Position numbers and translations under genes: made by a program. The notes beneath the pieces were generated by a model. It did no database searches and was not told where the DNA came from. It saw nothing but the letters and a program-made list of their open reading frames with translations. This document shows positions 2,711-39,774 of a stretch of 54,938 bases of DNA, piece after piece; within the stretch, counting starts at the first letter, position 1; the number at the start of each line of letters is the position of its first letter. The stretch covers positions 1 through 54,938 of the forward strand of contig JBCCYW010000005.1 in assembly GCA_039188945.1 (NCBI GenBank), written 5' to 3'. This DNA is from Patescibacteria group bacterium (GTDB lineage: Bacteria > Patescibacteriota > Minisyncoccia > Phycocordibacterales > UBA918).

Positions 2711-3292
2711 CTATAAATGGCTGACTTCAGCCGCGGTTTTGAGCGCTCGATCAAGTGCGATTTCTTCGTCGCCCGACAGCTCGCGATCAAACTGAGCGAT
2801 ATTGTCACTAAATGAGGCTTGCAAGGCTTTTTCGGAAGAAACGTAACCTAAGGCATGGAGCAGGTTGAGGCTTAATAGGCGTTCAAACGTCACTCGATGT
2901 GCAACAGTGGTAGTGGCCAGTTTTGGTAAACCGTCTTTAAGGAGCGTAAATACTCGTTCGTTTATCTCTTCCCCATGAACATAACGACGAACTAGCTTAA
3001 TAATACGCACGACGCTGCCTCGCGCTTCGCGCGAGGCAGCGTCGGAAAACAAATTCCCTTGTGATTCCACGCTGGCAATCCGCCAGCTCGTCTTTCCCCG
3101 AAATAGTGATACTCGAACAATCGAAAACTCCTGCAGCGCATAGCGCTGTTTTGATTTTTCTTCTCGCACACTCTTGGCCTCAGCGAAAATCATCCCCGCA
3201 TCCTTGGTGAAGAGTAAGTATGAGCGATCAGCCGTACTCCGTGCCTTGCTCCCACAGACAATCGCTTCTGTGCTGTAGGTTTCGTAAGCCAT
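2711..3292 (-). CDS. recO: RecO-like DNA repair protein (short form, 193 aa)
   Basis: N-terminal OB-like pattern TEAIVCGSKARSTADRSYLLFTKDAGMIFAEAKSVREEKSKQRYALQEFS, followed by ...FERLLSLNLLHALGYV, resembles RecO. The ATG overlaps the ileS stop (TAATG). No C-terminal zinc finger is visible. Confidence 0.55.
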   Translation of the reverse strand: MAYETYSTEAIVCGSKARSTADRSYLLFTKDAGMIFAEAKSVREEKSKQRYALQEFSIVRVSLFRGKTSWRIASVESQGNLFSDAASREARGSVVRIIKLVRRYVHGEEINERVFTLLKDGLPKLATTTVAHRVTFERLLSLNLLHALGYVSSEKALQASFSDNIAQFDRELSGDEEIALDRALKTAAEVSHL

Positions 3293-6200
3293 TAGACTTT
3301 TGTAATCTCTACGGTGAAGGAATGTTCACCCGCCACGACTTCGGAACCATTTGCATCACCAAAGGTGAGCTTCTTCGCCCCCACCGTTTTCATGATGTCA
3401 GTCTGGTGCGCATTAACAATCGCTTCCCCGCCATCAGAGGTCTGCACCACAAGCTCGATCTGATCAGTTGGTGAGAGGCCGGCCTGCTTTCGCATGTCCT
3501 GGACCTGACGCATAAACTCCCGAGCATCACCTTCTTGCTGGAGCTCAGGTGTGATTCGTTCATCGATAGCCACCGTATCATGATCAGTCACCTTATACTT
3601 CTTTACATTCACCTCATCGATCACTATCTGCTGGTGAATATCGGCCAGCTTTGGGCCGGTCACCGAAGCCAGTGGTTGCCGCACTTTTAGTTTTGCTTGC
3701 GCTCGTTTCTCAAGTGCCATCGTTACCACTTCTCGAGTCTGCTTCATGGCTTCAAGGACCGACTCATCTACTTTCCCGGCCTCAGGCCAGGCTGCCAGAT
3801 GCACACTTTCAGCGCCTTTCTCATCGCGTACCTCGCGCCACAAGTAATCTGCATAGAACGGCATACTCGGCGCCATCACCAGCGCTAGGTGTTGGAGTAC
3901 GTGGCGAAGCGTCGCCAGTGCCGCAGTCTTATCTTCGGCTTCATCTCCTTTCAAGCGATCACGTGATCGACGCAAGTACCAGACCGAGAGATCATCAATA
4001 AAGCCGGTGATTGGGCGGGTCGCTCGGTCGAGTTCATAGGCTTTGTAGCCAGCAGTCGTTTCAGCGATAAGTTCATTAAGTCGCGTGATGATCCATTCAT
4101 CAAGAACATGTTTTGAGCTATCTGACGCGTCTCCCCCATCGGCGTATTGCTGATACATCGTTAATACGTTGTGCAAACGACCAATGTTCTTACGCTGTAA
4201 TTCCTGCACCTCCTTCTCTGAGAAGTTTAGATCTTCTCCCTTAATGATTGGTGAGCTTAAGAGATAAAAGCGCATTGAGTCAGCACCTGAGCTATGGGCC
4301 ACCTCCATGGGGTCAGGATAATTTTGGAGCTTTTTACTCATCTTTTGGCCGTCCTCAGCCAGCACAATTCCATTCACGATCACATTCTCATATGGTGATT
4401 TTCCAAAGAGAGCCGTTCCCAAGACAATCAATGAGTAGAACCAACCTCGCGTTTGGTCGAGTCCTTCAGCGATGAAGTTGGCCGGAAACAGCTCCTTTTC
4501 AAAGTTGTCTTCGCATGAAAAGGGATAGTGATACTGCCCATACGGCATCGAACCACTTTCAAACCAACAGTCAAAAACGTCCGGTACTCGTTCCAGTTTT
4601 GTTTCTCCGTCGTAGAGGTCAATCTCATCGATGTACGGCCGATGATAATCGAGTTCATAAAAGTCATTGTGGGGGTACGCAGCAAAGTTGAGTTCGCGTA
4701 ATTCGGCGTTCTGTAGATCATAGTCATTCTGATCGACATGCCAGGCTGATGTTTCAAGATCATCCCCTTTTGCGGCCGCTTGCAACATCTGCAACGTTCC
4801 GTTGTGCGCCACGATCAAGACTTTCTTATCTTGATTGGTACGATTCACTGCAAAGAGAAATTCTCCCACCCGCTGCTTCACCTCTGTCCACGACTCTCCT
4901 CCTTCTGGATGCTTCGTCATGCGACCATGACCATCGGTAAAGAACTGATGGTACTCTTCAACTGGTTTATTTTCATACTCACCGAAGCGCATCTCATACA
5001 AACGATCATCAGCAAAGACACAATCACTCGCCAGACCAAGTTCACCAGCAATCAGCTGCGCTGTCTGCGCCGTTCGGAGTAGGGGCGAATGGTAGATAAG
5101 ATCAACCCCAGCTTTCTTAAGCTCCGCCGCAGCCTCCTTCGCCTGCTCTTTTCCTTTCTCGGTGAGACTATTACTCTCATCATTCACATCTGAGCTTAAG
5201 ATGCCTTTGGTATTAAAGACTGATTCACCATGACGAGTAATCGTGAAAGTGTTACCGCTACCAGGAACAAATGTCTGTAGCTCTGCCAAACTGCCAAATA
5301 CCTTAAAGTCTTTTGTCTCAGGATTTCGCCATACCGGCAGCGGCGCGCCCCAGTAGCGCTGACGGCTCACCGCCCAGTCACGCGCTCCTTCAAGCCACTT
5401 CCCAAAGCGGTTTTTGCCAACATGCTCTGGTACCCAATTGACCTTTTGGTTTGCCGCCACCAACTCATCTTTAAACTTTGTCACTTCTACAAACCACGAC
5501 GTTGTCGCGTAATTAAGGAGCGGCGTATCATCCCGCCAACAGTGCGGATAGCTATGCACGATATTTTCTTTGCGGAACAACGTACCACTATCTTTCAGCG
5601 CCCGTACGATTTCGATATCAGCATCTAAGTGTGTCACTCCAGAAGCATCGTCGTCTTTTGGTTTAACGAGTTGCCCGGCAAAGTCAGTCACAAAATTCAT
5701 AAACCGGCCTTCATAATCGACATGGTGAAACACAGGAATCCCCTCGCGCTGAGCGAGGAGTAAATCTTCTTCACCATAAGCCGGAGCCAGATGCACGGCT
5801 CCAGTTCCATCTTCACCTAATTCAACATACGGTGCATGATAAATCTTCCAAGCATTATCGCGACCTTTGAACTCTTGGTCATCCATGTATGCGAACGGTG
5901 GTTTGTAGGACTTACCAACCAAGGTAGAGCCTTTGAATTCGCTAACAATTTCATACTCATCTGTATCAAGCTGCTCCAAGCGAGCTTTTGCCAGCACTAC
6001 CACCTCTGCTACACCATCATTGGTGACGCGAGCTTTCACATAGTCATACTCTTCATGTACCGCTGCTGCAAAATTGCCTGGCAAGGTCCATGGCGTCGTG
6101 GTCCAGACCAGTAATGATGCCTTATCTGGATCATCAACAATCGGCAGTTTTACAGTAACCGCAATATCTTTGATGTCTTTGTAACCAAGATTCACTTCAA

Positions 6201-6783
6201 AGTTCGAAAGTGTGGTCCCACAACGTGGACAGAGGTGCATGCTCTTGAAGTCTTCATACACCAACCCTTTTTTATGAAGCTCACTAAATACCCACCACAC
6301 ACTCTCAGTGTATGAGGAATCCATGGTTTTATAATCATCCTCCATATCAGCCCAGCGGCCCATGCGCGGAATAATTTCCTGCCAATCGTCGCGATACTCC
6401 ATCACCGCAGTCCGCGCCGCTTCATTGAAGTTTTTAATGCCGTAGTCTTCAATGTCTCGTTTGTTCGCCAAACCTAATTTTTTCTCGATCAGGTTCTCGA
6501 GTGGCAACCCATGACAATCCCAACCCCACTGCCGGCGGACATGGTACCCATTCATGGTCCAAAACCGTGGAATTGCGTCTTTAATCGCACTCGCTAAAAT
6601 ATGACCATAGTGTGGCAAGCCAGTCGCAAACGGCGGCCCATCATAAAAAACAAAATCACCTTTAGGCTTCCCGCCACCAGGTGTCTCTAAACTCTTTTTA
6701 AACGTGTCGTGCTCCTGCCAAAAAGCCAGTACGGCTTCTTCACGCAGGGCGACCTCACTCTTCTTTGTGTGTTCTGTATTCAT
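3292..6783 (-). CDS. ileS: isoleucyl-tRNA synthetase (type-2-like) carrying an internal histidine-phosphatase domain
   Basis: 1163-aa ORF with HYGH (PHYGHIL), the CP1 editing-region block TTTPWTLPGN, WAVSRQRYWGAPLPVW, KMSKK, and an anticodon-binding and C-terminal region typical of IleRS. Confidence 0.95.
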   Translation of the reverse strand: MNTEHTKKSEVALREEAVLAFWQEHDTFKKSLETPGGGKPKGDFVFYDGPPFATGLPHYGHILASAIKDAIPRFWTMNGYHVRRQWGWDCHGLPLENLIEKKLGLANKRDIEDYGIKNFNEAARTAVMEYRDDWQEIIPRMGRWADMEDDYKTMDSSYTESVWWVFSELHKKGLVYEDFKSMHLCPRCGTTLSNFEVNLGYKDIKDIAVTVKLPIVDDPDKASLLVWTTTPWTLPGNFAAAVHEEYDYVKARVTNDGVAEVVVLAKARLEQLDTDEYEIVSEFKGSTLVGKSYKPPFAYMDDQEFKGRDNAWKIYHAPYVELGEDGTGAVHLAPAYGEEDLLLAQREGIPVFHHVDYEGRFMNFVTDFAGQLVKPKDDDASGVTHLDADIEIVRALKDSGTLFRKENIVHSYPHCWRDDTPLLNYATTSWFVEVTKFKDELVAANQKVNWVPEHVGKNRFGKWLEGARDWAVSRQRYWGAPLPVWRNPETKDFKVFGSLAELQTFVPGSGNTFTITRHGESVFNTKGILSSDVNDESNSLTEKGKEQAKEAAAELKKAGVDLIYHSPLLRTAQTAQLIAGELGLASDCVFADDRLYEMRFGEYENKPVEEYHQFFTDGHGRMTKHPEGGESWTEVKQRVGEFLFAVNRTNQDKKVLIVAHNGTLQMLQAAAKGDDLETSAWHVDQNDYDLQNAELRELNFAAYPHNDFYELDYHRPYIDEIDLYDGETKLERVPDVFDCWFESGSMPYGQYHYPFSCEDNFEKELFPANFIAEGLDQTRGWFYSLIVLGTALFGKSPYENVIVNGIVLAEDGQKMSKKLQNYPDPMEVAHSSGADSMRFYLLSSPIIKGEDLNFSEKEVQELQRKNIGRLHNVLTMYQQYADGGDASDSSKHVLDEWIITRLNELIAETTAGYKAYELDRATRPITGFIDDLSVWYLRRSRDRLKGDEAEDKTAALATLRHVLQHLALVMAPSMPFYADYLWREVRDEKGAESVHLAAWPEAGKVDESVLEAMKQTREVVTMALEKRAQAKLKVRQPLASVTGPKLADIHQQIVIDEVNVKKYKVTDHDTVAIDERITPELQQEGDAREFMRQVQDMRKQAGLSPTDQIELVVQTSDGGEAIVNAHQTDIMKTVGAKKLTFGDANGSEVVAGEHSFTVEITKV
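4669..5253 (-). other. histidine phosphatase (PGAM-like, branch 1) domain inserted in-frame in IleRS (aa ~511-705)
   Basis: TFTITRHGESVFN (RHG motif), LTEKGKEQA, IYHSPLLRTAQTAQ, EMRFGEYE, VLIVAHNGTLQ (second catalytic His). Flanked by the IleRS blocks PLPVW and LDYHRPYIDE. Confidence 0.8.
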
Positions 6784-7704: not shown

Positions 7705-9384
7705 CTACATTTTATCAGGCGCTTTGATCCCAAGCGCCCACAAGCCGTTCTGGAGTGTTTGCTGCACTGCCCCAGCTACCGCCGCCTTATAAGGAGCGAA
7801 TTTATCAGTAGCATCTGCAATTTTTTCTTGGGCGTAAAAGGTATTAAAGGCACCGGCGAGCTCGGTCAGAAAACCAGTAACATTATGGGGCGCTCGTTCG
7901 TTGAGTGCTTCTTCAATCACCTCCGGGAACCGGTAGAGGAGTTTTTCGATTTCATAAGGTTGTGGCGGCGCAAGCTGCGTCGACGCGTCGACGCCTGCTT
8001 GTGCCGCCTTCTCAAGCACGGAAATAATACGCGCATGGGTGTACTGCAAGTACGGCCCGCTATCACCTTCAAACGAAAGGGCTTTCTCTTTATCAAATAC
8101 TATATTTGAACCAACGTTATGTTTCAGAATTTGATACTTCAATGCGGCTACCGCAACCTGCTCGGCTAATTCATCGAGATTATCAGTTCGCGTCTCACTC
8201 GCTCGTTCTCTGGCTGCTTCCTGCATTTCTTCAAGTAATGATTCTCCGGTGAGCACATTTCCCTTACGTGACGACATCTTCCCAGTCGTGAGAGTGAGAA
8301 ATCCAGTCGCCACATGCTCGAGCTGTCGCTCAGACAAATCTGGAAATACTTCTTTGATCGCTGCAAAGATAACTTTAAAGTACTCGGCTTGCTCGATGCC
8401 AGTCACAATCACCGAAGCATCCCAGCTTGGCTCTGCTTCATGCTTGAGCTTAAAGTGACCAATGTCTTTGGCTTCGTACGTTGGCAAGCCTTCTGAATTT
8501 AGAAATACTCGAGTATGCAAACCTATTTTCTCTCCTTTGTAGACCACCGCTCCATCACTCTGCTCAAACACCGCTCCGGTATGTTCTTCTACCAGCGCCT
8601 GTCCAGGCCCGCTCACTAGTGATTCTGGTAGCTCATGATCAAAGGAAGTGTCCAAGACATCGAGAAGCTCTTGCAATCGCCGTTTAGAGGTCGCGATTCC
8701 CTGCTCACGTAGCGTATTCAAAGTTTCGTCTGAACCGGCATACAACGCTTTGTTGATCGCGACAATTTCATCTTTCTCTGCGCCGCCTTCTTCAAAAGCC
8801 GCGTTACCGGTTCGATATGCTTCACCGAGCGCCTGAATATCGCTTGGATCGCCACCGGTTTTTTGCATTCCCCAGACTGCCTTGGCAACCGACATCCCAA
8901 TATCTGACGGATAGTTAAATCGTTTTACATTCGCTCCGGCTAATTCAAATAGTCGCGACAGTGACTCACCAACGATATTGCCAACGAGATTTCCAATATG
9001 CAGTGGTTTAAAGAGATTGGGACTAGTGTATTCAATCATCACCAACTTTTCCTTCCAGGTATCATTCCTGCCCCACTGCTCTCCCTCTTCAAGTATGGTC
9101 GTGATTTTTTCTCTAAAAAAATCACGTCGTAAGTAGAAATTCAAAAAACCAGGTCCAGCTACCTCAACCTTCTCTACCTCAGGCAGTTTTCCTTCAAGCG
9201 CCACGAGTAATTGCGCAGCTAAATCTCGTGGCGCTTTACCAACCTGCTTCGCGGCTACCAAGGCAACATTCGAGGCATAATCACCGTGCGCCAGCTCCCC
9301 CGGATGTTCCACGACAAAATCTACTGGTTCAACACCAAGATCTGCGAGCACCTCACTAATCACTGATTGAATCTGGTCTTTCAT
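7705..9384 (-). CDS. argS: arginyl-tRNA synthetase
   Basis: 559 aa. N-terminal Arg_tRNA_synt_N-like region, an HIGH-type motif (SPNLFKPLHIGNL), and a C-terminal DALR-like anticodon-binding region (LKYQILKHN...YLQYTHARI). Confidence 0.95.
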   Translation of the reverse strand: MKDQIQSVISEVLADLGVEPVDFVVEHPGELAHGDYASNVALVAAKQVGKAPRDLAAQLLVALEGKLPEVEKVEVAGPGFLNFYLRRDFFREKITTILEEGEQWGRNDTWKEKLVMIEYTSPNLFKPLHIGNLVGNIVGESLSRLFELAGANVKRFNYPSDIGMSVAKAVWGMQKTGGDPSDIQALGEAYRTGNAAFEEGGAEKDEIVAINKALYAGSDETLNTLREQGIATSKRRLQELLDVLDTSFDHELPESLVSGPGQALVEEHTGAVFEQSDGAVVYKGEKIGLHTRVFLNSEGLPTYEAKDIGHFKLKHEAEPSWDASVIVTGIEQAEYFKVIFAAIKEVFPDLSERQLEHVATGFLTLTTGKMSSRKGNVLTGESLLEEMQEAARERASETRTDNLDELAEQVAVAALKYQILKHNVGSNIVFDKEKALSFEGDSGPYLQYTHARIISVLEKAAQAGVDASTQLAPPQPYEIEKLLYRFPEVIEEALNERAPHNVTGFLTELAGAFNTFYAQEKIADATDKFAPYKAAVAGAVQQTLQNGLWALGIKAPDKM

Positions 9385-11212: not shown

Positions 11213-12481
11213 TTAGACAAACTTCTCTGGCACTGGGAAGGCTTCACAGAGTGCTTGTACTTCCTTCTGCAACTCAGCTTTCTTGGCCACATCATCTTTC
11301 GCTTTCATCGCTGCAATCATAATTTCAGCGAGCTTGGTGGCTTCCGCTTCTTTCATACCGCGCGTGGTCATCGCTGGCGTACCAAAGCGAATCCCGGATG
11401 GATCCATGGCCTTGCGTGGATCATCAGCAATCATATTTTTATTAAGGGTAATACCGACTTCATCCAGCACATCCTCAGCTTCCTGCCCGGTAATACCCAG
11501 TGAACCAAATACGTCAGCCAATAATAAGTGGTTGTCAGTGCCACCCCCCATCAAGCGTATGTCAGCGTCTTTAAACACAGTCTCCATCGCTTTAGCATTC
11601 TTCAAAATTTGTTCGGCATAACTCTTAAATGTTGGATCAAGTGCCTCACCAAAAGCGACCGCCTTGGCCGCTACAATATGCATATGCGGACCACCCTGCA
11701 TGCCTGGGAAGACGGCTTTGTTAATTTTCTTCGCAATCTCTTCATCTTCACGTATCACAATCATCCCACCGCGTGGACCACGCAGTGACTTATGGGTGGT
11801 CATGGTCATCACATCAAACCCGTAATCAAATGGATTCTTCAGCACACCCGCCGCAATCAAGCCGGTGATGTGCGCGATATCTGCCACGGTGTAGGCACCG
11901 ACCTCATCAGCAATCGCTTTCATCTTCTCGTAATCAAGCTCACGGCTGTAGGCCGAGAAGCCGGCCAAAACAATTTTTGGCTTATGCTCCAGTGCCATCT
12001 CCCGCATCTCGTCGTAATCAATCTCACCAGTATCAACATCCTTCATCTTGTAACGAACAAAGTTGAAGACTTTGTTAATTTCAGTGGTTGGGTGTCCATG
12101 GGTGAGGTGCCCACCATGCGAAAGATCCATCCCAAGTACCGTATCACCCGGCTCCATGAGGGCAAAGTACATCGCCACATTCGCAGCTGCGCCACCAAGT
12201 GGTTGAACATTGGCGTACTTAGCCTTGAAGAGCGTACAAGCTCGCTTGATCGCAATCGTCTCCATCGCGTCGGTAAATTGCTGCCCACCATAGTAGCGTT
12301 TGCCAGGGTAGCCTTCAGAGTATTTGTTCGTGAACACCGAGCCCGCTGCTTCGCGCACCGCCATTGAGGCGTAGTTCTCGCTCGGAATGAGCTCCACCCC
12401 TTTGCGTTCCCGCTCCTCTTCCCCCACGAGGGTAGCGTAAATATCTTGGTCTTGATCTTTGATGTAGTTGTATTCGTGCAT
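11213..12481 (-). CDS. glyA: serine hydroxymethyltransferase
   Basis: 422 aa with ELIPSENYAS, KYSEGYPGKRYYGG and TTHKSLRGPRGG (PLP-lysine block). Confidence 0.95.
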   Translation of the reverse strand: MHEYNYIKDQDQDIYATLVGEEERERKGVELIPSENYASMAVREAAGSVFTNKYSEGYPGKRYYGGQQFTDAMETIAIKRACTLFKAKYANVQPLGGAAANVAMYFALMEPGDTVLGMDLSHGGHLTHGHPTTEINKVFNFVRYKMKDVDTGEIDYDEMREMALEHKPKIVLAGFSAYSRELDYEKMKAIADEVGAYTVADIAHITGLIAAGVLKNPFDYGFDVMTMTTHKSLRGPRGGMIVIREDEEIAKKINKAVFPGMQGGPHMHIVAAKAVAFGEALDPTFKSYAEQILKNAKAMETVFKDADIRLMGGGTDNHLLLADVFGSLGITGQEAEDVLDEVGITLNKNMIADDPRKAMDPSGIRFGTPAMTTRGMKEAEATKLAEIMIAAMKAKDDVAKKAELQKEVQALCEAFPVPEKFV

Positions 12482-12549: not shown

Positions 12550-13536
12550 CTACTCCTCTGCTTCATCCTCATCCTTCTGGTGAATTTTTTTATTAAAGCC
12601 GCCCACAACCGCTAGGTCGGCCTTGATGGTGGCATGTGAGTCGTAATTATTCAGCGTTACATGCTCTGGCTTGAAGTTATCGATAGAGGTAACCGCATCA
12701 TCGATAGTGACGGTCGGGAATGGTAGCGGGTCGCGAGAAAGTTGTTCCTTCGCCTGATCAATGTGATTTTCATAAATGTGCACATCTCCAAAAGTATGAA
12801 TAAACTCACCTGCTTCATAGCCAGTAATCTTGGCCAAGACTTCGGTCAGGAGCGCATAACTAGCGATGTTGAACGGCACTCCCAAAAAGATGTCAGCTGA
12901 TCGTTGGTAGAGCTGCAGACACAATTTCCCGTCCTTAATATTCAGCTGATACATGTTATGACAAATCGGAAAACGACAGGCTTCTCCTGGCTTGGCCATA
13001 GCGTAGAGATACTCAGGATTCCAACTGTTCACGATAGCGTTATGACAACTCGGATCGTTCTTCACCTCATCAACCACCCACTGCAACTGGTCTACCCCAC
13101 CACCATCTCGACGCGGCCAGTTACGCCACATCTCGCCATAAATACGCGGCAGTTCTCCGTGTTGTTTAGCGTACGCATCGTCAGAAGCAATCTTTTCAAT
13201 AAACTCTTCTTTGGTCAGTTCTGGCCAACCTTCTGCTTCGCGCTTGTCGTTGTAAATACGAAATGGGTAGTCATCCCAAATATGTACATTATTGTCGACC
13301 AGGTATTTGATATTCGTGTGACCAGCCATAAACCAATACAGCTCCTGCAATACACCGTTCCAATAGACTTTTTTCGTTGTTAAAAGCGGTAGGCCTTCAG
13401 ACAGATCAAACCGCATTTGCTTACCAAACAAACTGTAGGTCACATCGCCAGTATCAGCGTCGGCCTGTTTGTCTCCACTATCAAGGAGTTCTTGCATCAA
13501 ATCGAGGTATTGGTATTCAGGGTGTTTTTGTGACAT
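12550..13536 (-). CDS. thyA: thymidylate synthase (ThyA, long form with small-domain insert)
   Basis: YQYLDLMQELL, LLTTKKVYWNGVLQELYWFMAG, active-site CHNMYQL, LYQRSADIFLGVPFNIASYALL. Start set at the ATG at 13536 (MSQKHPEYQYLDL), 1 nt after the dcd stop. Track start 13602 would overlap dcd by 65 nt. Confidence 0.9.
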   Translation of the reverse strand: MSQKHPEYQYLDLMQELLDSGDKQADADTGDVTYSLFGKQMRFDLSEGLPLLTTKKVYWNGVLQELYWFMAGHTNIKYLVDNNVHIWDDYPFRIYNDKREAEGWPELTKEEFIEKIASDDAYAKQHGELPRIYGEMWRNWPRRDGGGVDQLQWVVDEVKNDPSCHNAIVNSWNPEYLYAMAKPGEACRFPICHNMYQLNIKDGKLCLQLYQRSADIFLGVPFNIASYALLTEVLAKITGYEAGEFIHTFGDVHIYENHIDQAKEQLSRDPLPFPTVTIDDAVTSIDNFKPEHVTLNNYDSHATIKADLAVVGGFNKKIHQKDEDEAEE

Positions 13537-13537
13537 G

Positions 13538-14086
13538 TTATTTTTTCTTAGCTTCAGTAAAATGTTGTGAATTGTCGCTATCGTAGCGACCAACCTCTTC
13601 ATAACTCTGTGCTGTCTTGCTACTTAGTTTACCAAAAATAAGCTGGGCAATTTCCATACCTGGTCTGAGAATAATGGGGATATTACTGCTATTAACGAGC
13701 TCGAAAGTCGGGTAAAACTTATGGCCTGGATTAAACAGCATAGCGGTGTTATGAACCACGAGCCCTACTCGAGCCAGGCTGCTCTTCCCCGAAAGTAGAA
13801 TAAGGTGCTCGTTATCAACACCAATAAATTCTTTTTGCTTGCCTAAGACATTTTCTCCTGGGTGTAGCACGAACGTATCGCCATCAGCTACTTCAATCTT
13901 GCGGGTCTTGGGATAAATTTTCTTGGCTGGATCTGAGGCTTCAAGTTGATGCCGATCAACTATCTCGAACTCATTGCCAAGGGTGACATCATAGCTAGCA
14001 ACTTGTAGTCGCGATTCGTCAAAGGGCTTGATAATAATTGCCCCACTTTCAACTCCTGTTTTGATATCAGTATCGGAAAGAAACAT
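13538..14086 (-). CDS. dcd: dCTP deaminase / dUTPase-superfamily protein
   Basis: MFLSDTDIKTGVESGAIIIKPFDESRLQVASYDVTLG is a typical Dcd N-terminus. The ATG at 14086 lies 1 nt after the upstream stop, whereas track start 14101 is a TTG. Confidence 0.85.
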   Translation of the reverse strand: MFLSDTDIKTGVESGAIIIKPFDESRLQVASYDVTLGNEFEIVDRHQLEASDPAKKIYPKTRKIEVADGDTFVLHPGENVLGKQKEFIGVDNEHLILLSGKSSLARVGLVVHNTAMLFNPGHKFYPTFELVNSSNIPIILRPGMEIAQLIFGKLSSKTAQSYEEVGRYDSDNSQHFTEAKKK

Positions 14087-20505: not shown

Positions 20506-22191
20506 CTACTTTCCTTCCGTTAGCTTTCGTCGAGTCAGTTCCTGCGCTGCGTTCATACTGTGTTGGTAGTAGAGTGCTTTTACCCCACTCTTCCAGGCTT
20601 GCATGTAGAGGGCATTGATATCTTTCGGTGGAGTGGATGGTGGCACCATAACATTAAGTGACTGTCCTTGGTCGATGTACTCCTGGCGCTTCGCGGCCTG
20701 ATCAATCACCACTGATTGGTCAATCTCAGCGAAGGTCCGGAACACTTCCTTCTCATCGTCATTCAAGCAGTCGAGATGCTGTACCGAACCATCATTATCG
20801 CGAATACTGTTCCAGGTTTCTTTATCGTTCTTCCCCTTCTCTTCCAAGAGCGTCTCAAGGAATGGGTTCTTGATCGTCACCTTCATCTTGGCGACGTCTT
20901 TCACATAGCAGTTACTCCACACTGGTTCGATACTCTGTGAGACCTGACCAAGGATAAAGGCTGAAGACGTAGTCGGCGCAATCGCCAGCTTGGTGGTGTT
21001 GCGGCGTCCATAACCCTTGAGGACTTCGGGTTCACCGTATTCCTTACCCATTTCTTCTGAAGCTTTATCTGACTTTTCTTTAATCAGCTTAAAAGCTTCT
21101 TCGTTGAGCTTAGCGGCGGCCTCGCTTTCAAAAGCAATCATTTTGCTCTGAAGGAGTGAGTGGTAACCAAGTACACCGAGGCCCAAGGCGCGATTTTCTT
21201 TCGCAAAGTTGTACGCTCGCTCCATAAAGGTGAAAGCAAGATTATCTTCTGGATCTTTTGCATCGCGAAGTGCTTCAAGCTTCACGACAAACTCCTCCAT
21301 CACCGCATCGAGGAAGTAGGTCATGGTCTCTACCAAGTCGGTATCCTTCCACGCGTCATAATGCAGCATGTTGATAGAGGAGAGACAACACACAAATGAC
21401 CAGCGATCATTGCTCGGCAGCATAATTTCGCTACAGAGGTTTGACGCCAAAATCTTATGATCTTTGTCTTTGTAGACATCAACCGTATTCTCGTTGGCGT
21501 TGTCGGTAAAGAGAATGTACGGATAGCCAATTTCACCACGACGTTGAATCACCCGGGCCCACGTCTTTCGTTTTTTCTCATCACCCCCTTCCATTTCCTT
21601 GAGCCACTCGCTTCCCACAGTCACACCGTGGGTCATGGTTTGAATAGGGTTACCTTCCGTACCAATGTCGAGAAACTCCATCGCATCATCATGTTCAAGT
21701 GGTAAGTACGGGCTAAAACTTCCGCGCCGTACCTTACCCTGACTCACCACATCAACCATCTTTTCAAACAACTGCATGAAGTGTACTGGACCGTTAGAAA
21801 AGCCGTTGTCGCCAATTGCTGCTCCACGAGCACGCAGATCACCAAAGTAGCCTGAAGTGCCTCCACCATACTTACTCATCATGCCGGCTTCGCCATGGGT
21901 GAGAAGAATCCCCGCCATATCATCTGGCAAATACGAACCAAAACAACTGATCGGCAAACCGCGATTTACACCGAAGTTGGCCCACACGGGAGACGAGAGC
22001 GAAATCCAGCCCTTGCTCATGTAGTCGTAAAATTTGTCAGCGAAGCCCGGTTTATTTAAAACTTTCTCGGCGTGATCGGCGATAAAGCGGATCCGTTCTT
22101 CAGCTGTCTGCCCTTCCCCGAGGTAGCCTCGAGCAAGGAAGGTCCGGCTATTTTCATTAAGCCAGTACCATGGTTCATGGCGATTGGTCAT
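20506..22191 (-). CDS. nrdA: class I ribonucleotide reductase large subunit, short form without ATP-cone
   Basis: 561 aa with LSSPVWANFG, SNLCSEI (active-site Cys/Glu block), AIAPTTSSAFILG and a C-terminal ALYYQHS tyrosine pair. The N-terminus starts directly in the catalytic core. Confidence 0.9.
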   Translation of the reverse strand: MTNRHEPWYWLNENSRTFLARGYLGEGQTAEERIRFIADHAEKVLNKPGFADKFYDYMSKGWISLSSPVWANFGVNRGLPISCFGSYLPDDMAGILLTHGEAGMMSKYGGGTSGYFGDLRARGAAIGDNGFSNGPVHFMQLFEKMVDVVSQGKVRRGSFSPYLPLEHDDAMEFLDIGTEGNPIQTMTHGVTVGSEWLKEMEGGDEKKRKTWARVIQRRGEIGYPYILFTDNANENTVDVYKDKDHKILASNLCSEIMLPSNDRWSFVCCLSSINMLHYDAWKDTDLVETMTYFLDAVMEEFVVKLEALRDAKDPEDNLAFTFMERAYNFAKENRALGLGVLGYHSLLQSKMIAFESEAAAKLNEEAFKLIKEKSDKASEEMGKEYGEPEVLKGYGRRNTTKLAIAPTTSSAFILGQVSQSIEPVWSNCYVKDVAKMKVTIKNPFLETLLEEKGKNDKETWNSIRDNDGSVQHLDCLNDDEKEVFRTFAEIDQSVVIDQAAKRQEYIDQGQSLNVMVPPSTPPKDINALYMQAWKSGVKALYYQHSMNAAQELTRRKLTEGK

Positions 22192-22227
22192 ACAGATAGT
22201 TTAGGGTGAATAAGGAAAGAACTGGGC

Positions 22228-23541
22228 TTAGAACAGGTCGTTACTGGTGACACTAGTCTGGCGCTTATTGTAATTGATCGAGCGCTTATCAAAGAAGTCG
22301 ACGTGCTTGGTAGCAATTACTTCATTGTCAAACCAGTCAGTCTTCTCGAGCAACGCTTCGTCAATTGAGAACACGGCGTCCATACCAATACCTTTGAGTG
22401 AGTTGTTGAGGCGATTCTTGATGAATTCTTTCACCTCATTCTTCGGCATAAAGTCGAGTTCACCATCTTCGAAAATCCAGTCTACGATTGCGCTCTCTGC
22501 CTGGTAGGCTTCAATACACATCGTCTTGACCATTTCGCGGTGGCTATCATCAAACCATTCTGGATGCTCCTTCTTAATGATGTTGATGAGATCGGTACCA
22601 AACATGCCATGGATCTGCTCTTCTTTAGACGTAGCTTCTACTGCGTTACTGATACCCTTGAACAAGTTTCGATGCTTGTTGAAGCTCATCATGATGAGGA
22701 ACTGTGAGAAGAGCGAGACGTGCTCAATGAATAATGAGAAGAGGAGTACCGCTTGGGTATACTGACGATTCTCGTTAGTCTTAGAGAGATTAATAACCTT
22801 ATCAAGATATTTCACACGATCCTGGATCACTTGCACATCTTGCAAGTTCTTGAATTCATCATTAAGACCAAGAATCTCCAAGAGGTGCGAGTAGGCGTCC
22901 ATGTGGCGAACTTCACTGTCAGCGAAGGTGAATCCAACAGCACCAATTTCTGGCTTTGGCATCTTACTGTAGAGGTTGCCCCAGAAGGTCTTCACTGCTA
23001 CTTCAATTTGAGCGATCGCCAGCATCGTCTTTTTAATTGATTCCCGCTCAGCATCGGTAACATTAACTTTGTAGTCGTTGGTATCACTAGTGTAGCTAAA
23101 CTCGGTGTGAATCCAGTATGAGTGACGAACTGCATCTACATATGAAGCAAGCTCTGGATATTCGTATGGCTTCAACTCAACTCGCTTGGTGAAAAGGTCA
23201 CGTTCGCGCAAACGCTTTCGTTCGGCACGATAGATGATGTAGGCTTTCGCGGTCTCGAAGTAATCGAGCTCCATAAGCGCAGCTTCTACCAAGTCTTGAA
23301 TTTCTTCAACAGCTGGATACCCATCAACACACTTATTAGCGAGCGGACTGTCGGTTTCGGCAGCCGCCGCTTGGACACACATGGACACAATTTTTTCCTT
23401 GACGAGCGCAGCTACTTTCTCAGCCTCAGGCTGAGCGCCTTCTCCGGTTTCTTTAAAAGCCTTCATCACCGCATTGGTGATTTTGTTGATCTCAAAGGCT
23501 TTGGTAGTTCCATCTCGTTTTTTGATTTGTTTGATTTCCAT
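22228..23541 (-). CDS. nrdB: class I ribonucleotide reductase small (radical-generating) subunit with N-terminal ATP-cone
   Basis: Ferritin-like blocks IAQIEVAVKTFW, ADSEVRHMDAYSHLLE (ExxH plus Tyr), LFSLFIEHVSLFSQF and SKEEQIHGMFG follow an ATP-cone. Confidence 0.9.
   Translation of the reverse strand: MEIKQIKKRDGTTKAFEINKITNAVMKAFKETGEGAQPEAEKVAALVKEKIVSMCVQAAAAETDSPLANKCVDGYPAVEEIQDLVEAALMELDYFETAKAYIIYRAERKRLRERDLFTKRVELKPYEYPELASYVDAVRHSYWIHTEFSYTSDTNDYKVNVTDAERESIKKTMLAIAQIEVAVKTFWGNLYSKMPKPEIGAVGFTFADSEVRHMDAYSHLLEILGLNDEFKNLQDVQVIQDRVKYLDKVINLSKTNENRQYTQAVLLFSLFIEHVSLFSQFLIMMSFNKHRNLFKGISNAVEATSKEEQIHGMFGTDLINIIKKEHPEWFDDSHREMVKTMCIEAYQAESAIVDWIFEDGELDFMPKNEVKEFIKNRLNNSLKGIGMDAVFSIDEALLEKTDWFDNEVIATKHVDFFDKRSINYNKRQTSVTSNDLF
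23227..23541 (-). other. ATP-cone domain of NrdB (aa ~1-105)
   Basis: IKKRDGTTKAFEINKITNAVMKA ... VEEIQDLVEAALMELDYFETAKAYIIYRAERKRL. Confidence 0.8.
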
Positions 23542-23580
23542 GTGATATTCAATCAGTACTTACAATAATTAGTAGGTGTA

Positions 23581-25039: not shown

Positions 25040-25112
25040 GGCGACTATGGTGTAACGGTTAGCGCTCCGGTTTGTGGTACCGGCTGTCCGGGTTCGATTC
25101 CCGGTAGTCGCC
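25040..25112 (+). tRNA. tRNA-His (anticodon GTG) with genome-encoded G-1
   Basis: Folded by hand. Acceptor GCGACTA/TAGTCGC, with G-1 opposite C73. D-arm GTGT-AACGGTTA-GCGC. Anticodon arm CCGGT-TTGTGGT-ACCGG. T-arm CCGGG-TTCGATT-CCCGG. CCA is not encoded. Confidence 0.9.
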
Positions 25113-26799
25113 CCTTCTGGGATTCCCTATCATTTTGAGGGGTCTCAACAACACATTTAGTATTGAAAAGAAAGCGTTTTTTAGCGGTACCACTAACTAA
25201 TTCTTGGTAGGTTGGTAAATCCTCGAAGAATAGTTGAAATAACTGCTTCTGACGCAGCGGATTATCTTTGTCTATCAAGGCTTTTTCGGGGAGTTCCACT
25301 ATTTTCTTGGCGTAACTGATAAGTTCAGCAATATTGTCTTCTGTAAGGTCAACTGAGAAACGGACCGACTCAGCTTTTTTGATGTCACGCTCAATGTTCT
25401 CAAGTTGTTTTTCGAGCATTTGCTTCACTGACGAACTCTCTGTATTCACCAGTGTCTCAAGGGTTTTCCCTTGCTGACTCTTCAGGAGCGTCACACGCTC
25501 ATTGAGCTTCTCTGATTCTTGCACCGCATCTTTCTGTCGCTTACGTAACTTTCGGACTAACACTTCCTCTAGCACTTTCAAATAGTCACTGTCGTACTCA
25601 ACTCCTTTGAGAAATTGCTCAACCGTCTCGTTCATTTGTTGCCGACTCACTGAGAACGACTTATGACCACGAGCACAGTGATACTGCGGATAACGACCAC
25701 CTCGCCCTTTCGGAGCACTACCCTTTAGCGGACTACCGCATTGTGGGCAAGCCACACACTTAAATGGATACTCTGGGTTGTATCTAAGTCGCTGAAAGAC
25801 TGGCTTTTCAGTTTTGTAGTCATAGAGAATCTCTAGTAAGTTGTCGTCATACTCTTTGATAAAAATCTTCCCGCGATTGGCTTTATTCCATAGCTCTATA
25901 GAAACCAAACCATCCCACTGCGCTTTGATTGGCTTGTTGTGTGTCCACTTCTCACACAGCACCCCTGCGTAAGCAAAACGTTGGTAGATGCGTTGTAGTT
26001 GTTTTATCTGTAGTTTCTTACCTCCTCCCTGCCCAATAATCTCAGTATGGGCTTTGTTCCAGCGGTTGAAGGTTTTGGTACGAAAGCCCATGTCATCGTT
26101 CAATATGCGCAGTATCTCTTGGTCAGTATGCTGCCCTCCTGCTCGTAACTCAAAAATCTTTTTAAAGAAGTGTGCTCGCTCAGGGTCTGACGCTTGAATA
26201 AAACGAATCTGCGTGCCAGCAACCACCTTCTGGTTTACATACCCATCATCAGGTCGACCGATTTGGTATCCCTTCTGGGTATAGGTAATCTGCTTTGGAA
26301 TCGTACGACGTAGGATAGTATCTCGCTCTATCTTTGCTTGTGTTGAGAGAATTGTTTCTGAGATTTCACTTGGCGATTCATAACCCCATTCATACTCATT
26401 AAAACCAAGATTATCCAACTCAGTTAAGTTTTTTGACTCCTGAATTATTCCCCGCTCATCAACCAAAACTACATTTAGTTCGCGCAACTCTCTTTTCATT
26501 GCTTCATACTCAGACGTGCCAGCACGTGACAATCGGTCAATACATGGAATGAGATAGTAGCCAACCTTCCCAGGATGCTCTCGAATGTATGCAAGATGGT
26601 CCTCAAATAGTTTTCGACGTTTAGTGGCTGTGCCAATTTCTTCAAACACTTTACCAGACGGCAAAAGCTCCCAATCACGTACAGCAGCATAGTTCTCCAA
26701 GGCTTTTACTTGCAGCTCCATACTCTCCCCAGCTACTTGCTGGGTGCTACTCAGACGAGCACTAGCGATACAGGTTTGTGGACGTTCTGGATTACTCAT
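25045..26799 (-). CDS. large serine recombinase (phage-type serine integrase)
   Basis: N-terminal resolvase catalytic region (CIASARLSSTQQ...CIDRLSRAG). Recombinase domain. Zinc ribbon CVACPQCG...YHCARGH. Long coiled-coil C-terminal part. The last ~23 codons are antisense to tRNA-His. Confidence 0.9.
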   Translation of the reverse strand: MSNPERPQTCIASARLSSTQQVAGESMELQVKALENYAAVRDWELLPSGKVFEEIGTATKRRKLFEDHLAYIREHPGKVGYYLIPCIDRLSRAGTSEYEAMKRELRELNVVLVDERGIIQESKNLTELDNLGFNEYEWGYESPSEISETILSTQAKIERDTILRRTIPKQITYTQKGYQIGRPDDGYVNQKVVAGTQIRFIQASDPERAHFFKKIFELRAGGQHTDQEILRILNDDMGFRTKTFNRWNKAHTEIIGQGGGKKLQIKQLQRIYQRFAYAGVLCEKWTHNKPIKAQWDGLVSIELWNKANRGKIFIKEYDDNLLEILYDYKTEKPVFQRLRYNPEYPFKCVACPQCGSPLKGSAPKGRGGRYPQYHCARGHKSFSVSRQQMNETVEQFLKGVEYDSDYLKVLEEVLVRKLRKRQKDAVQESEKLNERVTLLKSQQGKTLETLVNTESSSVKQMLEKQLENIERDIKKAESVRFSVDLTEDNIAELISYAKKIVELPEKALIDKDNPLRQKQLFQLFFEDLPTYQELVSGTAKKRFLFNTKCVVETPQNDRESQKGRLPGIEPGQPVPQTGALTVTP

Positions 26800-26803
26800 A
26801 CAT

Positions 26804-26953
26804 TTATTCTACTACCTCTCGCTCACTGAGCCATTTATCTAAAATCATATCCGCCTGTGCATCAACAAAATCACGAAAAAACTCCACAGACTCTTCGTCT
26901 ACCGTGACGTTTTTGTCTTTGAGTATTTGTCGAAACTCTTCTAATGCAGTCAT
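26804..26953 (-). CDS. small acidic helical protein (49 aa) immediately upstream of the integrase
   Basis: MTALEEFRQILKDKNVTVDEESVEFFRDFVDAQADMILDKWLSEREVVE. Its stop lies 4 nt before the integrase ATG. Track start 27058 is a TTG. Confidence 0.4.
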   Translation of the reverse strand: MTALEEFRQILKDKNVTVDEESVEFFRDFVDAQADMILDKWLSEREVVE

Positions 26954-28269: not shown

Positions 28270-28476
28270 GATGTGTTGCTTAGTGGGTAAAACCAGCAAC
28301 GGGACATACAAAAATCCCGTAACTAGGAGAGCCGAAGCCCCTATGCAGGTTTCCCCACACAACGAAGAGTACGCCCTAACTACGGGGTTTTTGTACTCTT
28401 CGATTTTCGACCATACCGCCAGATATGCTGTCGGGTTAGGCCTTATATTCAATTGTACGAAAGACTATAGCATGAA

Positions 28477-31227: not shown

Positions 31228-31467
31228 AGCTTAGTAATGATTGCGGATAAGCTTCTTGTAATAGTAACAAGTAAAAATCGATCTTTGGGTGAGTGACTGG
31301 GACAAGTCTTCTCTAATACTTTGGGCTGCAGAGTTCCTTGTTGTCGTCTGTACGACGGCGATGGAGATTTTTTGACTCTCTCTAGAATATACATTGTTCT
31401 GCTATCCTTTTTCTCAAACACAGCTGATCCCGCAGGGCGGCTGTTGAATTGCTATACTTAGTTTTGT

Positions 31468-39773: not shown

Positions 39774-39774
39774 A

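What the first reader, a model, noticed from the sequence alone, without database searches (positions are those of the whole stretch)
4669..5253. Complete histidine-phosphatase (PGAM-like) domain inserted inside the IleRS catalytic core
The IleRS ORF has all the normal class-I landmarks (HYGH, WAVSRQRYWGAPLPVW, KMSKK). Between PLPVW (aa 481-485) and the conserved LDYHRPYIDE block (aa 711-720), about 195 aa read as a full branch-1 histidine phosphatase. The motifs are TITRHGESVFN (catalytic RHG), LTEKGKEQA, IYHSPLLRTAQTAQ, EMRFGEYE and VLIVAHNGTLQ (second catalytic His). From memory, type-2 IleRS enzymes have only a few dozen residues here. The insert is in frame with no stops, so this is one polypeptide and not two neighbouring genes. 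The catalytic residues look intact, which suggests an active phosphatase grafted onto an essential aaRS. I do not know of a described role for this arrangement. Possible roles include nucleotide or alarmone turnover, tRNA-end chemistry or inhibitor detoxification, but these are pure speculation.
Basis: partly seen in the sequence, partly recalled or inferred. Interest (0 to 1): 0.75.

Follow-up and report, generated by a model that had tools for sequence, protein, structure and literature searches.

The report
Phosphatase domain built into isoleucyl-tRNA synthetase
The enzyme that loads isoleucine onto tRNA in this small-genome (Patescibacteria) bacterium carries a complete, apparently active phosphatase inside its catalytic core; this is a lineage-wide, apparently undescribed arrangement, and in sister lineages the same phosphatase is a separate gene directly upstream of the synthetase gene.

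Summary
Window 3292-6783 (-) is one 1163-aa ORF, a type-2 IleRS (TIGR00392 873 bits, cutoff 621). A histidine-phosphatase domain (PF00300, E=2.9e-35; aa 508-706, nt 4666-5262) replaces a 7-residue loop of subdomain CP3.

It is not an assembly artefact. More than 100 species-representative Paceibacteria genomes, and all 119 best database relatives, have the same single ORF in the same argS-ileS-recO neighbourhood.

All phosphatase catalytic residues (R517, H518, N524, R570, E597, H660) are invariant in 81 sequences, although the insert is only about 38% identical among them. The domain model is confident (pLDDT 95) and resembles small metabolite phosphatases (PspA, PhoE, CobC, GpgP), not full-length mutases.

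New findings:
- In 46 sister genomes the closest relative is a free-standing ~190-aa gene. In 42 of them an insert-less ileS lies downstream on the same strand, usually abutting.
- Peregrinibacteria IleRS carries two copies, and other metagenomic IleRS carry copies at other loops.
- ValRS of Lipton-, Wolfe- and Colwellbacteria carries one copy at the homologous CP3 loop.

The substrate is unknown. I infer an active accessory phosphomonoesterase functionally tied to IleRS/ValRS. No paper describing it was found.

The parts
3292..6783 (-). ileS: one ORF of 1163 aa, a type-2 (eukaryote/Thermus-like) isoleucyl-tRNA synthetase with an inserted phosphatase domain
   Evidence: ORF. (TIGR00392 873.5 bits, cutoff 621.4). 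(best PDB sequence matches are type-2 IleRS at E about 1e-200, against type-1 at 1e-77 to 1e-89). (whole model matches 8c8v and 8wnd with TMt 0.78-0.86).
6601..6612 (-). HYGH class-I signature motif (aa 58-61)
   Evidence: Conserved in the fusion family.
6085..6102 (-). TTTPWT threonine-rich motif of the CP1 editing domain (aa 228-233)
   Evidence: Invariant in 79 of 79 aligned fusion proteins.
5263..5373 (-). CP2-CP3 linker and N-terminal part of CP3 (aa 471-507: AVSRQRYWGAPLPVW...GSLAELQTFVP)
   Evidence: Alignment to yeast and human IleRS. CP3 boundaries and the role of the CP2-3 linker in the tRNA-A76/reveromycin pocket come from PMC7955072 and PMC7191050.
4666..5262 (-). Inserted histidine phosphatase (His_Phos_1) domain, aa 508-706
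   Evidence: Pfam PF00300 E=2.9e-35. Family HMM envelope 508-706. AF2 pLDDT about 90-98 in the full model and 94.9 with pTM 0.92 for the domain alone. Foldseek top matches are PspA 4ij6, GpgP 6s2q/4pz9, PhoE 1h2e and CobC 6e4b/6nru.
5227..5235 (-). RHG motif: Arg517, His518 (predicted phospho-accepting nucleophile) and Gly519
   Evidence: R and H are invariant in 81 of 81; G in 77 and A in 4.
5074..5076 (-). Arg570, the second phosphate-binding arginine
   Evidence: Invariant in 81 of 81; codon checked.
4993..4995 (-). Glu597, the predicted general acid/base
   Evidence: Invariant in 81 of 81; codon checked.
4804..4806 (-). His660, the second active-site histidine
   Evidence: Invariant in 81 of 81; codon checked.
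4174..4665 (-). C-terminal part of CP3 (DFYELDYHRPYIDE...) and second half of the Rossmann fold, including KMSKK (nt 4330-4344)
3295..4101 (-). Anticodon-binding domain (aa 895-1039) and C-terminal DUF5915 tRNA-binding region (aa 1010-1163)
7705..9384 (-). argS (arginyl-tRNA synthetase), the conserved upstream neighbour. In sister lineages the free-standing phosphatase gene lies between argS and ileS.
   Evidence: Pfam. (present in 57 of 80 related loci). (argS-HisPhos-ileS order).
2711..3292 (-). recO-like gene, the conserved downstream neighbour (synteny marker)
   Evidence: RecO_N. (67 of 80 loci).

Best explanation
This is the chromosomal isoleucyl-tRNA synthetase of a Paceibacteria (Patescibacteria/CPR) bacterium. 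All synthetic and editing motifs are intact, so it should charge tRNA-Ile and proofread in the usual way.

A small histidine phosphatase of about 200 residues has been built into the solvent-exposed, topologically variable CP3 subdomain. It belongs to the PhoE/PspA/CobC/GpgP-like structural class and replaces a 7-residue loop.

The domain most likely still works as a phosphomonoesterase by the standard family chemistry. His518 takes the phosphoryl group. Arg517, Arg570, Asn524 and His660 hold it. Glu597 acts as acid/base.

The phosphatase is an old partner of ileS. In sister lineages it is a free-standing gene in an argS-phosphatase-ileS arrangement. In this lineage it is internal. In others it sits at other loops, in two copies, or in the homologous CP3 loop of ValRS. 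Its job therefore seems to need proximity to or co-expression with the branched-chain synthetases, not one fixed geometry.

I infer that it acts on a diffusible small phosphorylated compound connected with these enzymes, and is not a glycolytic mutase.

Shown here: the architecture, distribution, conservation, synteny and fold class. Inferred: catalytic activity, the functional link to IleRS, and the small-molecule nature of the substrate. Unknown: the substrate itself.
For: - Architecture.
- Not an artefact: 80 of 80 genome loci hold a long ORF spanning both parts. All 119 non-self best hits, at 63-71% identity, have PF00133 plus PF00300. The argS-ileS-recO-DUF11 synteny is conserved in 57-67 of 80 loci.
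- Selection for catalysis: R517, H518, N524, R570, R594, E597, E630 and H660 are invariant in 81 sequences, while the insert is only 38% identical at the median against 57% for the IleRS core.
- IleRS is intact: HxGH, KMSK, TTTPWT and the editing GTGxVHxxPxxGxxD motif are conserved.
- Fold class: the domain model has pLDDT 94.9. The best structural matches are about 200-aa metabolite phosphatases (TM about 0.75-0.78); full-length dPGMs rank lower, and no SixA, Sts-1 or PGAM5 entry is in the top 50.
- Partner-gene evidence: of 46 species with a free-standing copy, 42 have an insert-less ileS downstream on the same strand (31 within 150 nt, most abutting or overlapping) and 43 have argS upstream. 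L167 has a 1-nt gap before ileS and a normal 6-residue CP3 loop.
- Recurrence: Peregrinibacteria IleRS has two copies. Other sites occur in P0296 and P0268. ValRS has a CP3 insert in 118 of the 120 best hits to the Liptonbacteria ValRS.
- CP3 is surface-exposed and variable in fold among IleRSs (PMC7191050, PMC13439101).
Against: - No biochemical data exist, so activity and substrate are inferred.
- Conservation of active-site residues would also fit a ligand-binding sensor.
- Gene adjacency in compact CPR genomes, inside a long translation-gene cluster (smpB-infC-rpmI-rplT-argS-X-ileS), could reflect frozen synteny and not function. Adjacency alone could also have made capture into ileS mechanically easy.
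- For ValRS, the one insert-less relative examined has no free-standing neighbour copy.
- I could not get model coordinates, so the orientation of the phosphatase pocket relative to the synthetic site, the KMSKS loop and the tRNA 3' end is unknown.
- I could not check whole genomes for a second, canonical ileS.
Confidence: 0.55

Rival explanations
1. Hitch-hiking housekeeping phosphatase. The phosphatase is an ordinary metabolite phosphatase with no functional tie to aminoacylation. It happened to lie next to ileS in a frozen gene order and was captured into permissive surface loops, for example by partial duplication of ileS 5' of it followed by deletion. It is kept because an essential, constitutive gene gives it reliable expression.
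For: - The closest structures are generic metabolite phosphatases.
- CP3 is a variable, exposed subdomain.
- Insertion is tolerated at four or more different loops, so no particular geometry is needed.
- The neighbourhood is a long, conserved translation-gene cluster.
- The surface charge of the insert is not conserved (pI 4.8-9.3).
Against: - The adjacency persists in 42 of 46 species with a free-standing copy.
- Fusion recurs specifically with IleRS, and separately with its closest paralogue ValRS, whose gene is not next to such a copy in the one relative examined.
- Among the best 150 relatives of the insert, every long protein I examined was IleRS or ValRS.
Confidence: 0.27
2. Macromolecular repair or regulatory phosphatase. 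The domain dephosphorylates tRNA (a 3'-phosphate or 2',3'-cyclic-phosphate-derived end blocking A76), or the synthetase itself. One candidate target is a phosphoserine in the KMSKS loop of the kind made by HipA/HipT-type kinases on GltX and TrpS; that precedent is recalled from memory and was not tested. This would restore aminoacylation.
For: - The insertion is in CP3, directly after the CP2-3 linker that lines the tRNA A76 pocket (PMC7955072).
- The homologous loop is used in ValRS.
- The histidine phosphatase superfamily does include protein phosphatases (established knowledge).
Against: - There is no conserved basic surface. The window's insert has pI 5.1 and net charge -11.5, and the family ranges from pI 4.8 to 9.3.
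- The structural neighbours are small-molecule enzymes, not Sts-1, PGAM5 or SixA.
- The domain works as a separate protein or from several different loops, so a fixed geometry towards the active site is not required.
Confidence: 0.1
3. Cofactor-dependent phosphoglycerate mutase of glycolysis embedded in IleRS.
For: - The best NCBIfam phosphatase-type hit is the archaeal short dPGM model (NF038349, 108.7 bits).
- Sources label relatives 'probable phosphoglycerate mutase'.
Against: - The score is far below that model's cutoff (225) and below the cutoffs of every dPGM model.
- Full-length dPGMs are poorer structural matches than PspA, PhoE, CobC and GpgP.
- Two to four copies per synthetase in some lineages, and presence in ValRS, are hard to explain for a single glycolytic step.
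Confidence: 0.05
4. Catalytically silent module: a structural spacer or a phospho-ligand sensor that tunes IleRS allosterically.
For: - Invariant pocket residues would also be kept for binding alone.
- CP3 is next to the active-site linker.
Against: - The full catalytic set, including the general acid Glu597 and the nucleophile His518, is invariant in 81 of 81. Pseudo-enzymes usually lose one of them.
- Free-standing orthologues exist.
Confidence: 0.03
5. Assembly chimera, or two adjacent genes joined by a frameshift or sequencing error.
For: None found. Reads were not available for mapping.
Against: - The same single ORF occurs in more than 100 independently assembled species genomes, including closed chromosomes (CP060229.1, AP024681.1), and in all 119 best database relatives.
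- The IleRS sequence resumes in register after the insert.
- Composition is uniform across the insert and the rest of the gene.
Confidence: 0.003

Closest known systems
Type-2 (eukaryote/archaeal/Thermus-like) isoleucyl-tRNA synthetase, e.g. P. megaterium IleRS2 (8C8U/8C8V), yeast IleRS (8WND, 7D5C), T. thermophilus IleRS (1ILE)
   Same: - Same domain order: Rossmann fold, CP core, CP1 editing, CP2, CP3, anticodon-binding, C-terminal junction/DUF5915.
- HxGH, KMSKS and editing motifs are present.
- TMt is 0.78-0.86 to these structures.
   Different: - CP3 carries a roughly 200-residue enzyme domain where these have 7-22 residues.
- The window protein has lost the CP3 zinc knuckle that Thermus and 28 of 81 fusion relatives keep.
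Small branch-1 histidine phosphatases: PspA/iPSP1 (4IJ5), PhoE/YhfR (1H2E, 1EBB), CobC alpha-ribazole phosphatase (6NRU, 6E4B), GpgP Rv2419c (4PZ9), riboflavin-pathway HFP (9MMH)
   Same: - Same fold and size (TM about 0.7-0.78, rmsd 2.2-3.8 A, 24-31% identity).
- Same catalytic residue set.
   Different: - It is not a free-standing protein here.
- It falls below the curated cutoff of every named equivalog, so none of their substrates can be transferred to it.
Bifunctional RNase H / acid phosphatase of actinobacteria (NCBIfam PRK07238; the M. tuberculosis example Rv2228c is recalled from memory)
   Same: A CobC/PhoE-like histidine phosphatase is covalently joined to a nucleic-acid enzyme, and the phosphatase's role in the fusion is not understood. 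The insert scores 83.5 bits on that model.
   Different: That is an end-to-end fusion, not an internal insertion. The partner enzyme is different. The score is below the cutoff of 326.
Other aaRS with accreted domains, e.g. NCBIfam NF040702 'isoleucine--tRNA ligase, N-acetyltransferase domain-containing'; also eukaryotic aaRS appended domains and LeuRS/ProRS insertion domains (recalled from memory)
   Same: An essential synthetase acquires an extra module.
   Different: Here the module is a complete, unrelated enzyme placed inside the catalytic-core insertion CP3. It also exists as a neighbouring gene in sister lineages and recurs in ValRS. The window protein is not a member of NF040702 (296 bits against 1999).

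Membership tests
Isoleucyl-tRNA synthetase (TIGR00392 equivalog) | Whole-protein score above the curated cutoff | tested here: met
   873.5 bits against a cutoff of 621.4, matched in two stretches either side of the insert.
Isoleucyl-tRNA synthetase (class Ia) | HIGH and KMSKS signature motifs and the CP1 editing-site motifs | tested here: met
   HYGH at 58-61, KMSKK at 814-818, TTTPWT at 228-233 and GTGAVHLAPAYGEED at 326-340. All are conserved across 81 fusion proteins.
Type-2 IleRS | Closer to eukaryotic/archaeal/Thermus/IleRS2 enzymes than to type-1, with a type-2 C-terminal region | tested here: met
   PDB phmmer gives type-2 chains E=1e-195 to 1e-209 and type-1 chains 1e-77 to 1e-89. Foldseek ranks the type-2 structures first. 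The DUF5915 C-terminus is present.
Housekeeping (sole) IleRS of the genome | Only ileS copy in the genome | not testable with these tools
   Whole genomes could not be scanned. Indirect support: the gene occupies the same argS-ileS-recO locus as the insert-less ileS of sister lineages.
Mupirocin-resistance IleRS MupA / MupB | Score above the exception-model cutoff | tested here: not met
   625 and 669 bits against a cutoff of 1900.
Histidine phosphatase superfamily, branch 1 (PF00300) | Domain score above the gathering threshold | tested here: met
   122.1 bits against 21.7, E=2.9e-35, profile positions 2-166 of 194.
Histidine phosphatase superfamily, branch 1 (PF00300) | Catalytic core: RHG histidine, two arginines, second histidine, acid/base glutamate | tested here: met
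   R517, H518, R570, H660 and E597 are present and invariant in 81 of 81 homologues; N524 in 80 of 81.
Histidine phosphatase superfamily, branch 1 (PF00300) | Alpha/beta fold of the family | tested here: met
   AF2 domain model has pLDDT 94.9. Foldseek gives probability 1.00 to PspA, PhoE, CobC and GpgP with TM 0.7-0.78.
Histidine phosphatase superfamily, branch 1 (PF00300) | Phosphatase activity | not testable with these tools
   Needs an enzyme assay.
2,3-BPG-dependent phosphoglycerate mutase (dPGM_arch NF038349, GpmB PRK03482, PRK01295) | Score above the equivalog cutoff | tested here: not met
   108.7 against 225, 46.1 against 261 and 41.6 against 316.
Alpha-ribazole phosphatase CobC (TIGR03162, PRK15004) | Score above the equivalog cutoff | tested here: not met
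   83.3 against 162.9 and 66.6 against 250.
Phosphoserine phosphatase PspA (NF045917) and phosphoserine phosphatase 1 (PRK13463) | Score above the equivalog cutoff | tested here: not met
   73.9 against 350 and 51.5 against 277, although PspA is the closest solved structure.
Intein or other self-splicing/mobile protein insertion | Splicing-domain or homing-endonuclease domain hit | tested here: not met
   No intein/Hint or endonuclease family appears in the Pfam scan. The whole insert is accounted for by His_Phos_1.

The most novel reading that the evidence does not exclude
The histidine phosphatase is a dedicated accessory activity of the two branched-chain editing synthetases (IleRS and ValRS) in Patescibacteria. 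It would add a new step to aminoacylation biology. Candidate steps are removal of a phosphorylated by-product, inhibitor or blocking group on the tRNA 3' end, or reversal of an inactivating phosphorylation of the synthetase. On this reading the free-standing form binds IleRS as a subunit, and the inserted forms are covalent versions of that complex.
Probability: 0.3. Interest if true: 0.85.

Novelty: new variant of a known kind. Interest (0 to 1): 0.68.

Why it matters
Aminoacyl-tRNA synthetases are among the most conserved enzymes known, and extra catalytic domains inside the bacterial catalytic core are rare. Here a second, apparently active enzyme sits inside CP3 of IleRS. It does so across a large part of the Candidate Phyla Radiation, and it recurs in ValRS.

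The system comes with a natural 'split versus fused' experiment, because sister lineages encode the same phosphatase as a separate gene directly upstream of ileS. That makes the question of what a phosphatase does for a synthetase directly testable: compare fused, split and deletion forms.

If the link is functional, it would reveal an unknown accessory step in translation in organisms with minimal genomes.

There are practical consequences too:
- These proteins are named only 'isoleucyl-tRNA synthetase' or 'class I tRNA ligase family protein' in public records.
- Domain-based metabolic reconstructions of CPR genomes could wrongly count the embedded domain as a phosphoglycerate mutase.

Tried and rejected
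- **Misassembly or frameshift:** rejected, because the same ORF occurs in more than 100 species genomes.
- **Four loci lacking 'RHG':** they turned out to have RHA, with R and H intact, so they are not degenerate copies.
- **Recent horizontal acquisition:** no GC or GC3 difference between insert and gene.
- **Named phosphatase subfamilies (dPGM, GpmB, CobC, PspA, acid phosphatase):** all below their curated cutoffs.
- **Extended nucleic-acid-binding surface:** the insert is acidic in the window, and its charge is not conserved across the family.
- **Second His_Phos copy, or a ValRS, in the window:** none.
- **Recent intragenic duplication as the source of multi-copy forms:** copies are only about 30-38% identical to each other. 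Only the ValRS fragment P0242 has its own copies as mutual best hits, at 35%.
- **Genome scan for the four-copy ValRS (P0242):** it gave only partial matches and no orthologue.
- **Free-standing phosphatase next to an insert-less valS:** not found in the one Ryanbacteria context read.
- **Direction of evolution (insertion versus fission):** a rough NJ tree nests the free-standing copies among embedded ones with several switches. The rooting is unreliable, so I leave this unresolved.
- **Literature:** seven searches found no description.
- **Geometry of the phosphatase pocket relative to the synthetic site:** not obtainable, because the structure tool returns no coordinates.
Full report
**1. 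The observation**

Window 3292..6783 on the minus strand is one uninterrupted ORF of 1163 aa.
- Pfam finds the class-I synthetase catalytic family split into two stretches. Between them lies a His_Phos_1 domain at aa 514-679 (E=2.9e-35). Anticodon_1 and DUF5915 follow.
- NCBIfam's ileS equivalog scores 873.5 bits against a cutoff of 621.4.
- The finding's coordinates 4669-5253 are aa 511-705.
- Aligned to solved IleRS structures, the sequence leaves the IleRS alignment at residue 504/505 and rejoins at 712. In human IARS1 and yeast IleRS the corresponding gap is 7 residues; in P. megaterium IleRS2 it is 22. So about 200 residues have been added.
- The best PDB matches are type-2 IleRS (E about 1e-200), far ahead of type-1 (1e-77 to 1e-89).

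**2. Where the insert sits**

Published domain boundaries put yeast CP3 at residues 459-526 and Candida CP3 at 473-534 (PMC7955072 and PMC7191050). The insert lies between yeast residues 491 and 499, which is the middle of CP3.

CP3 differs in topology among Candida, Thermus and S. aureus IleRS. In human IARS1 it is an exposed surface that binds LARS1 (PMC13439101). The segment just before it, the CP2-3 linker (here ARDWAVSRQRYWG), lines the pocket that holds the tRNA 3' end and reveromycin A. In 28 of 81 homologues the insert is bracketed by the CxxC...CxxC zinc knuckle known from Thermus CP3. The window protein has lost those cysteines.

**3. It is real and clade-wide**
- A scan of species-representative genomes, using the insert plus both junctions, returned 80 loci. 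All are from Patescibacteria (Kaiser-, Nomura-, Taylor-, Adler-, Zambryski-, Vogelbacteria and unnamed Paceibacteria), and nearly all cover the whole query.
- All 80 have a long stop-free frame spanning synthetase and phosphatase: 1100-1300 aa where the contig allows, shorter only where it is cut at a contig end.
- All 119 non-self best hits in the 5.8-billion-protein collection (63-71% identity) have the same Pfam architecture. Sources name them 'isoleucyl-tRNA synthetase' or 'class I tRNA ligase family protein'.
- The neighbourhood argS - ileS - recO - DUF11 protein is shared by 57-67 of the 80 loci.
- Base composition of the insert equals the rest of the gene.

An assembly chimera or a frameshift is excluded.

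**4. Both halves are under selection**
- In an 81-sequence alignment the insert is 38% identical at the median, against 57% for the IleRS core.
- Even so, R517, H518, R570, R594, E597, E630 and H660 are invariant, and N524 is kept in 80 of 81.
- Four sequences have RHA in place of RHG.
- The HxGH, KMSK, TTTPWT and editing-site motifs of IleRS are likewise conserved.

**5. What kind of phosphatase it is**
- The full-length AlphaFold2 model is confident (pLDDT 86.5, pTM 0.78; 90-98 over the insert) and matches type-2 IleRS structures.
- The domain alone gives pLDDT 94.9 and pTM 0.92.
- Its nearest solved structures are about 200-residue metabolite phosphatases: PspA phosphoserine phosphatase, glucosyl-3-phosphoglycerate phosphatase, PhoE, CobC and a riboflavin-pathway phosphatase. 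They match at TM 0.70-0.78 and 24-31% identity. Full-length phosphoglycerate mutases are poorer matches.
- No named NCBIfam equivalog is reached: dPGM_arch 109 against 225, CobC 83 against 163, PspA 74 against 350.

The chemistry can be inferred. The substrate cannot.

The insert in the window is acidic (pI 5.1, charge -11.5). Charge is not conserved across the family (pI 4.8-9.3), which argues against an extended RNA-binding surface.

**6. The partner-gene discovery**

The closest free-standing relatives of the insert (36-39% identity, sharing the N-x-Y...RHG start) were looked up in their contigs.
- In L167 the order is smpB-infC-rpmI-rplT-argS-[His_Phos, 189 aa]-ileS-...-recO-DUF11. The gap between the phosphatase stop codon and the ileS start is 1 nt. 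The ileS is 931 aa with a normal CP3 (GSIKELEKL-SSVKVT-DLHKHFID).
- L166 and L169 also place the phosphatase directly after argS, and in L169 it is also next to ileS.
- A genome scan seeded with four free-standing proteins gave 80 species: 46 with a free-standing gene and 32 with the embedded form.
- Of the 46, 42 have an insert-less ileS downstream on the same strand. In 31 it is within 150 nt, mostly abutting or overlapping. 43 have argS upstream.
- Free-standing forms are labelled Staskawicz- and Nealsonbacteria. Embedded forms include Azam-, Jorgensen- and Liptonbacteria.
- A rough neighbour-joining tree groups embedded site-A copies and free-standing copies together. They separate from ValRS copies, second-site copies and generic bacterial homologues. 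Several switches between the two states are implied. The direction is unresolved.

**7. Recurrence elsewhere**
- An exhaustive profile-free search with the insert found IleRS proteins with two copies, and with copies at other loops: after the DLHK block, before FIAEGxDQTRGW, and between the KMSKS region and the anticodon domain.
- Peregrinibacteria and Peribacteria genomes encode 1465-1487-aa IleRS with two copies.
- ValRS of Lipton- and Sungbacteria (valS model 784 and 928 bits against a cutoff of 704) carries one copy between the two halves of its CP3 zinc knuckle. This is the loop homologous to the window's site.
- 118 of the 120 best relatives of the Liptonbacteria ValRS have it (Lipton-, Wolfe- and Colwellbacteria). 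A Ryanbacteria orthologue in the same valS-prsW-hsp20 context lacks it.
- One metagenomic ValRS fragment has four copies.

**8. Interpretation**

Shown: a functional-looking IleRS with a functional-looking histidine phosphatase in CP3, fixed across a large clade. The same phosphatase clade alternates between being a gene abutting ileS and a domain inside it. Parallel insertions occur in ValRS.

Inferred: the domain is catalytically active. It is tied to IleRS/ValRS function or expression and not to glycolysis. Because it works as a separate protein and from several loops, it needs proximity and not a fixed geometry. This favours a diffusible small substrate.

The main rival is a housekeeping phosphatase captured because it lay next to ileS. 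It cannot be excluded, but it explains the independent ValRS insertions less well.

**9. Novelty**

Seven full-text searches found no description. The sequences are in public databases under generic names. I class the finding as a new variant of a known kind: a synthetase with an accreted domain. It has unusual features: an intact foreign enzyme inside the catalytic-core insertion, split and fused forms in sister lineages, and recurrence in the paralogous ValRS.

Noticed in passing
L121:3567-6479 (+), L133:3606-6413 (+); proteins P0394-P0513: Valyl-tRNA synthetases of Lipton-, Sung-, Wolfe- and Colwellbacteria carry one His_Phos_1 domain between the two CxxC halves of the CP3 zinc knuckle. This loop is homologous to the IleRS site. 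118 of the 120 best relatives have it.
   Followed up: partly
L086:2820-7214, L087:2799-7214, L088:2772-7232 (+ strand ORFs of 1465-1487 aa): Peregrinibacteria/Peribacteria IleRS has two His_Phos domains, one at the window's site and one after the DLHK block of CP3.
   Followed up: partly
Proteins P0296, P0268, P0375, P0326, P0242 (metagenomic): IleRS variants carry extra His_Phos copies at other loops: before FIAEGLDQTRGW, and between the KMSKS region and the anticodon domain. A ValRS fragment carries four copies. Their organisms are unknown.
   Followed up: partly
L169:2682-5609 (-): Here ileS lies convergent to the free-standing phosphatase and is called as two ORFs (412 aa cut by the contig end, plus 554 aa) separated by 24 nt. 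It may be a genuinely split gene, an error, or an in-frame stop read through under an alternative code.
   Followed up: no
window 28328-28442 (-): LOOT RNA (Rfam RF03000), 66.7 bits against a gathering score of 46.4, full length.
   Followed up: no
window 25041-25114 (+) and 25048-26808 (-): The only tRNA in the window (tRNA-His, GTG) abuts or overlaps the end of a 587-aa ORF with an N-terminal serine-recombinase (Resolvase) domain. This may mark an element integrated at the tRNA gene.
   Followed up: no
window 22231-23559 (-) and 20509-22200 (-): The ribonucleotide reductase small subunit has an N-terminal ATP-cone domain (PF03477 plus PF00268). It lies next to a 564-aa large-subunit gene in which no ATP-cone was found. 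This is an uncommon placement for the allosteric domain.
   Followed up: no
window 41884-54936 (-): A giant open frame of at least 4351 aa runs off the end of the window. Nearby are large ORFs with G8/CEMIP beta-helix domains (31462-34233, +) and bacterial Ig-like domains (36624-39830, -).
   Followed up: no
window 11213-12481 (-) and 12550-13602 (-): Serine hydroxymethyltransferase and thymidylate synthase lie a few genes upstream of argS-ileS. The closest solved structure of the insert is a phosphoserine phosphatase, but no link was tested.
   Followed up: no
L211 (444-aa ORF, His_Phos at aa 224-419): A His_Phos copy of this clade sits in a 444-aa ORF with no IleRS or ArgRS similarity nearby. 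The N-terminal half is unidentified.
   Followed up: no
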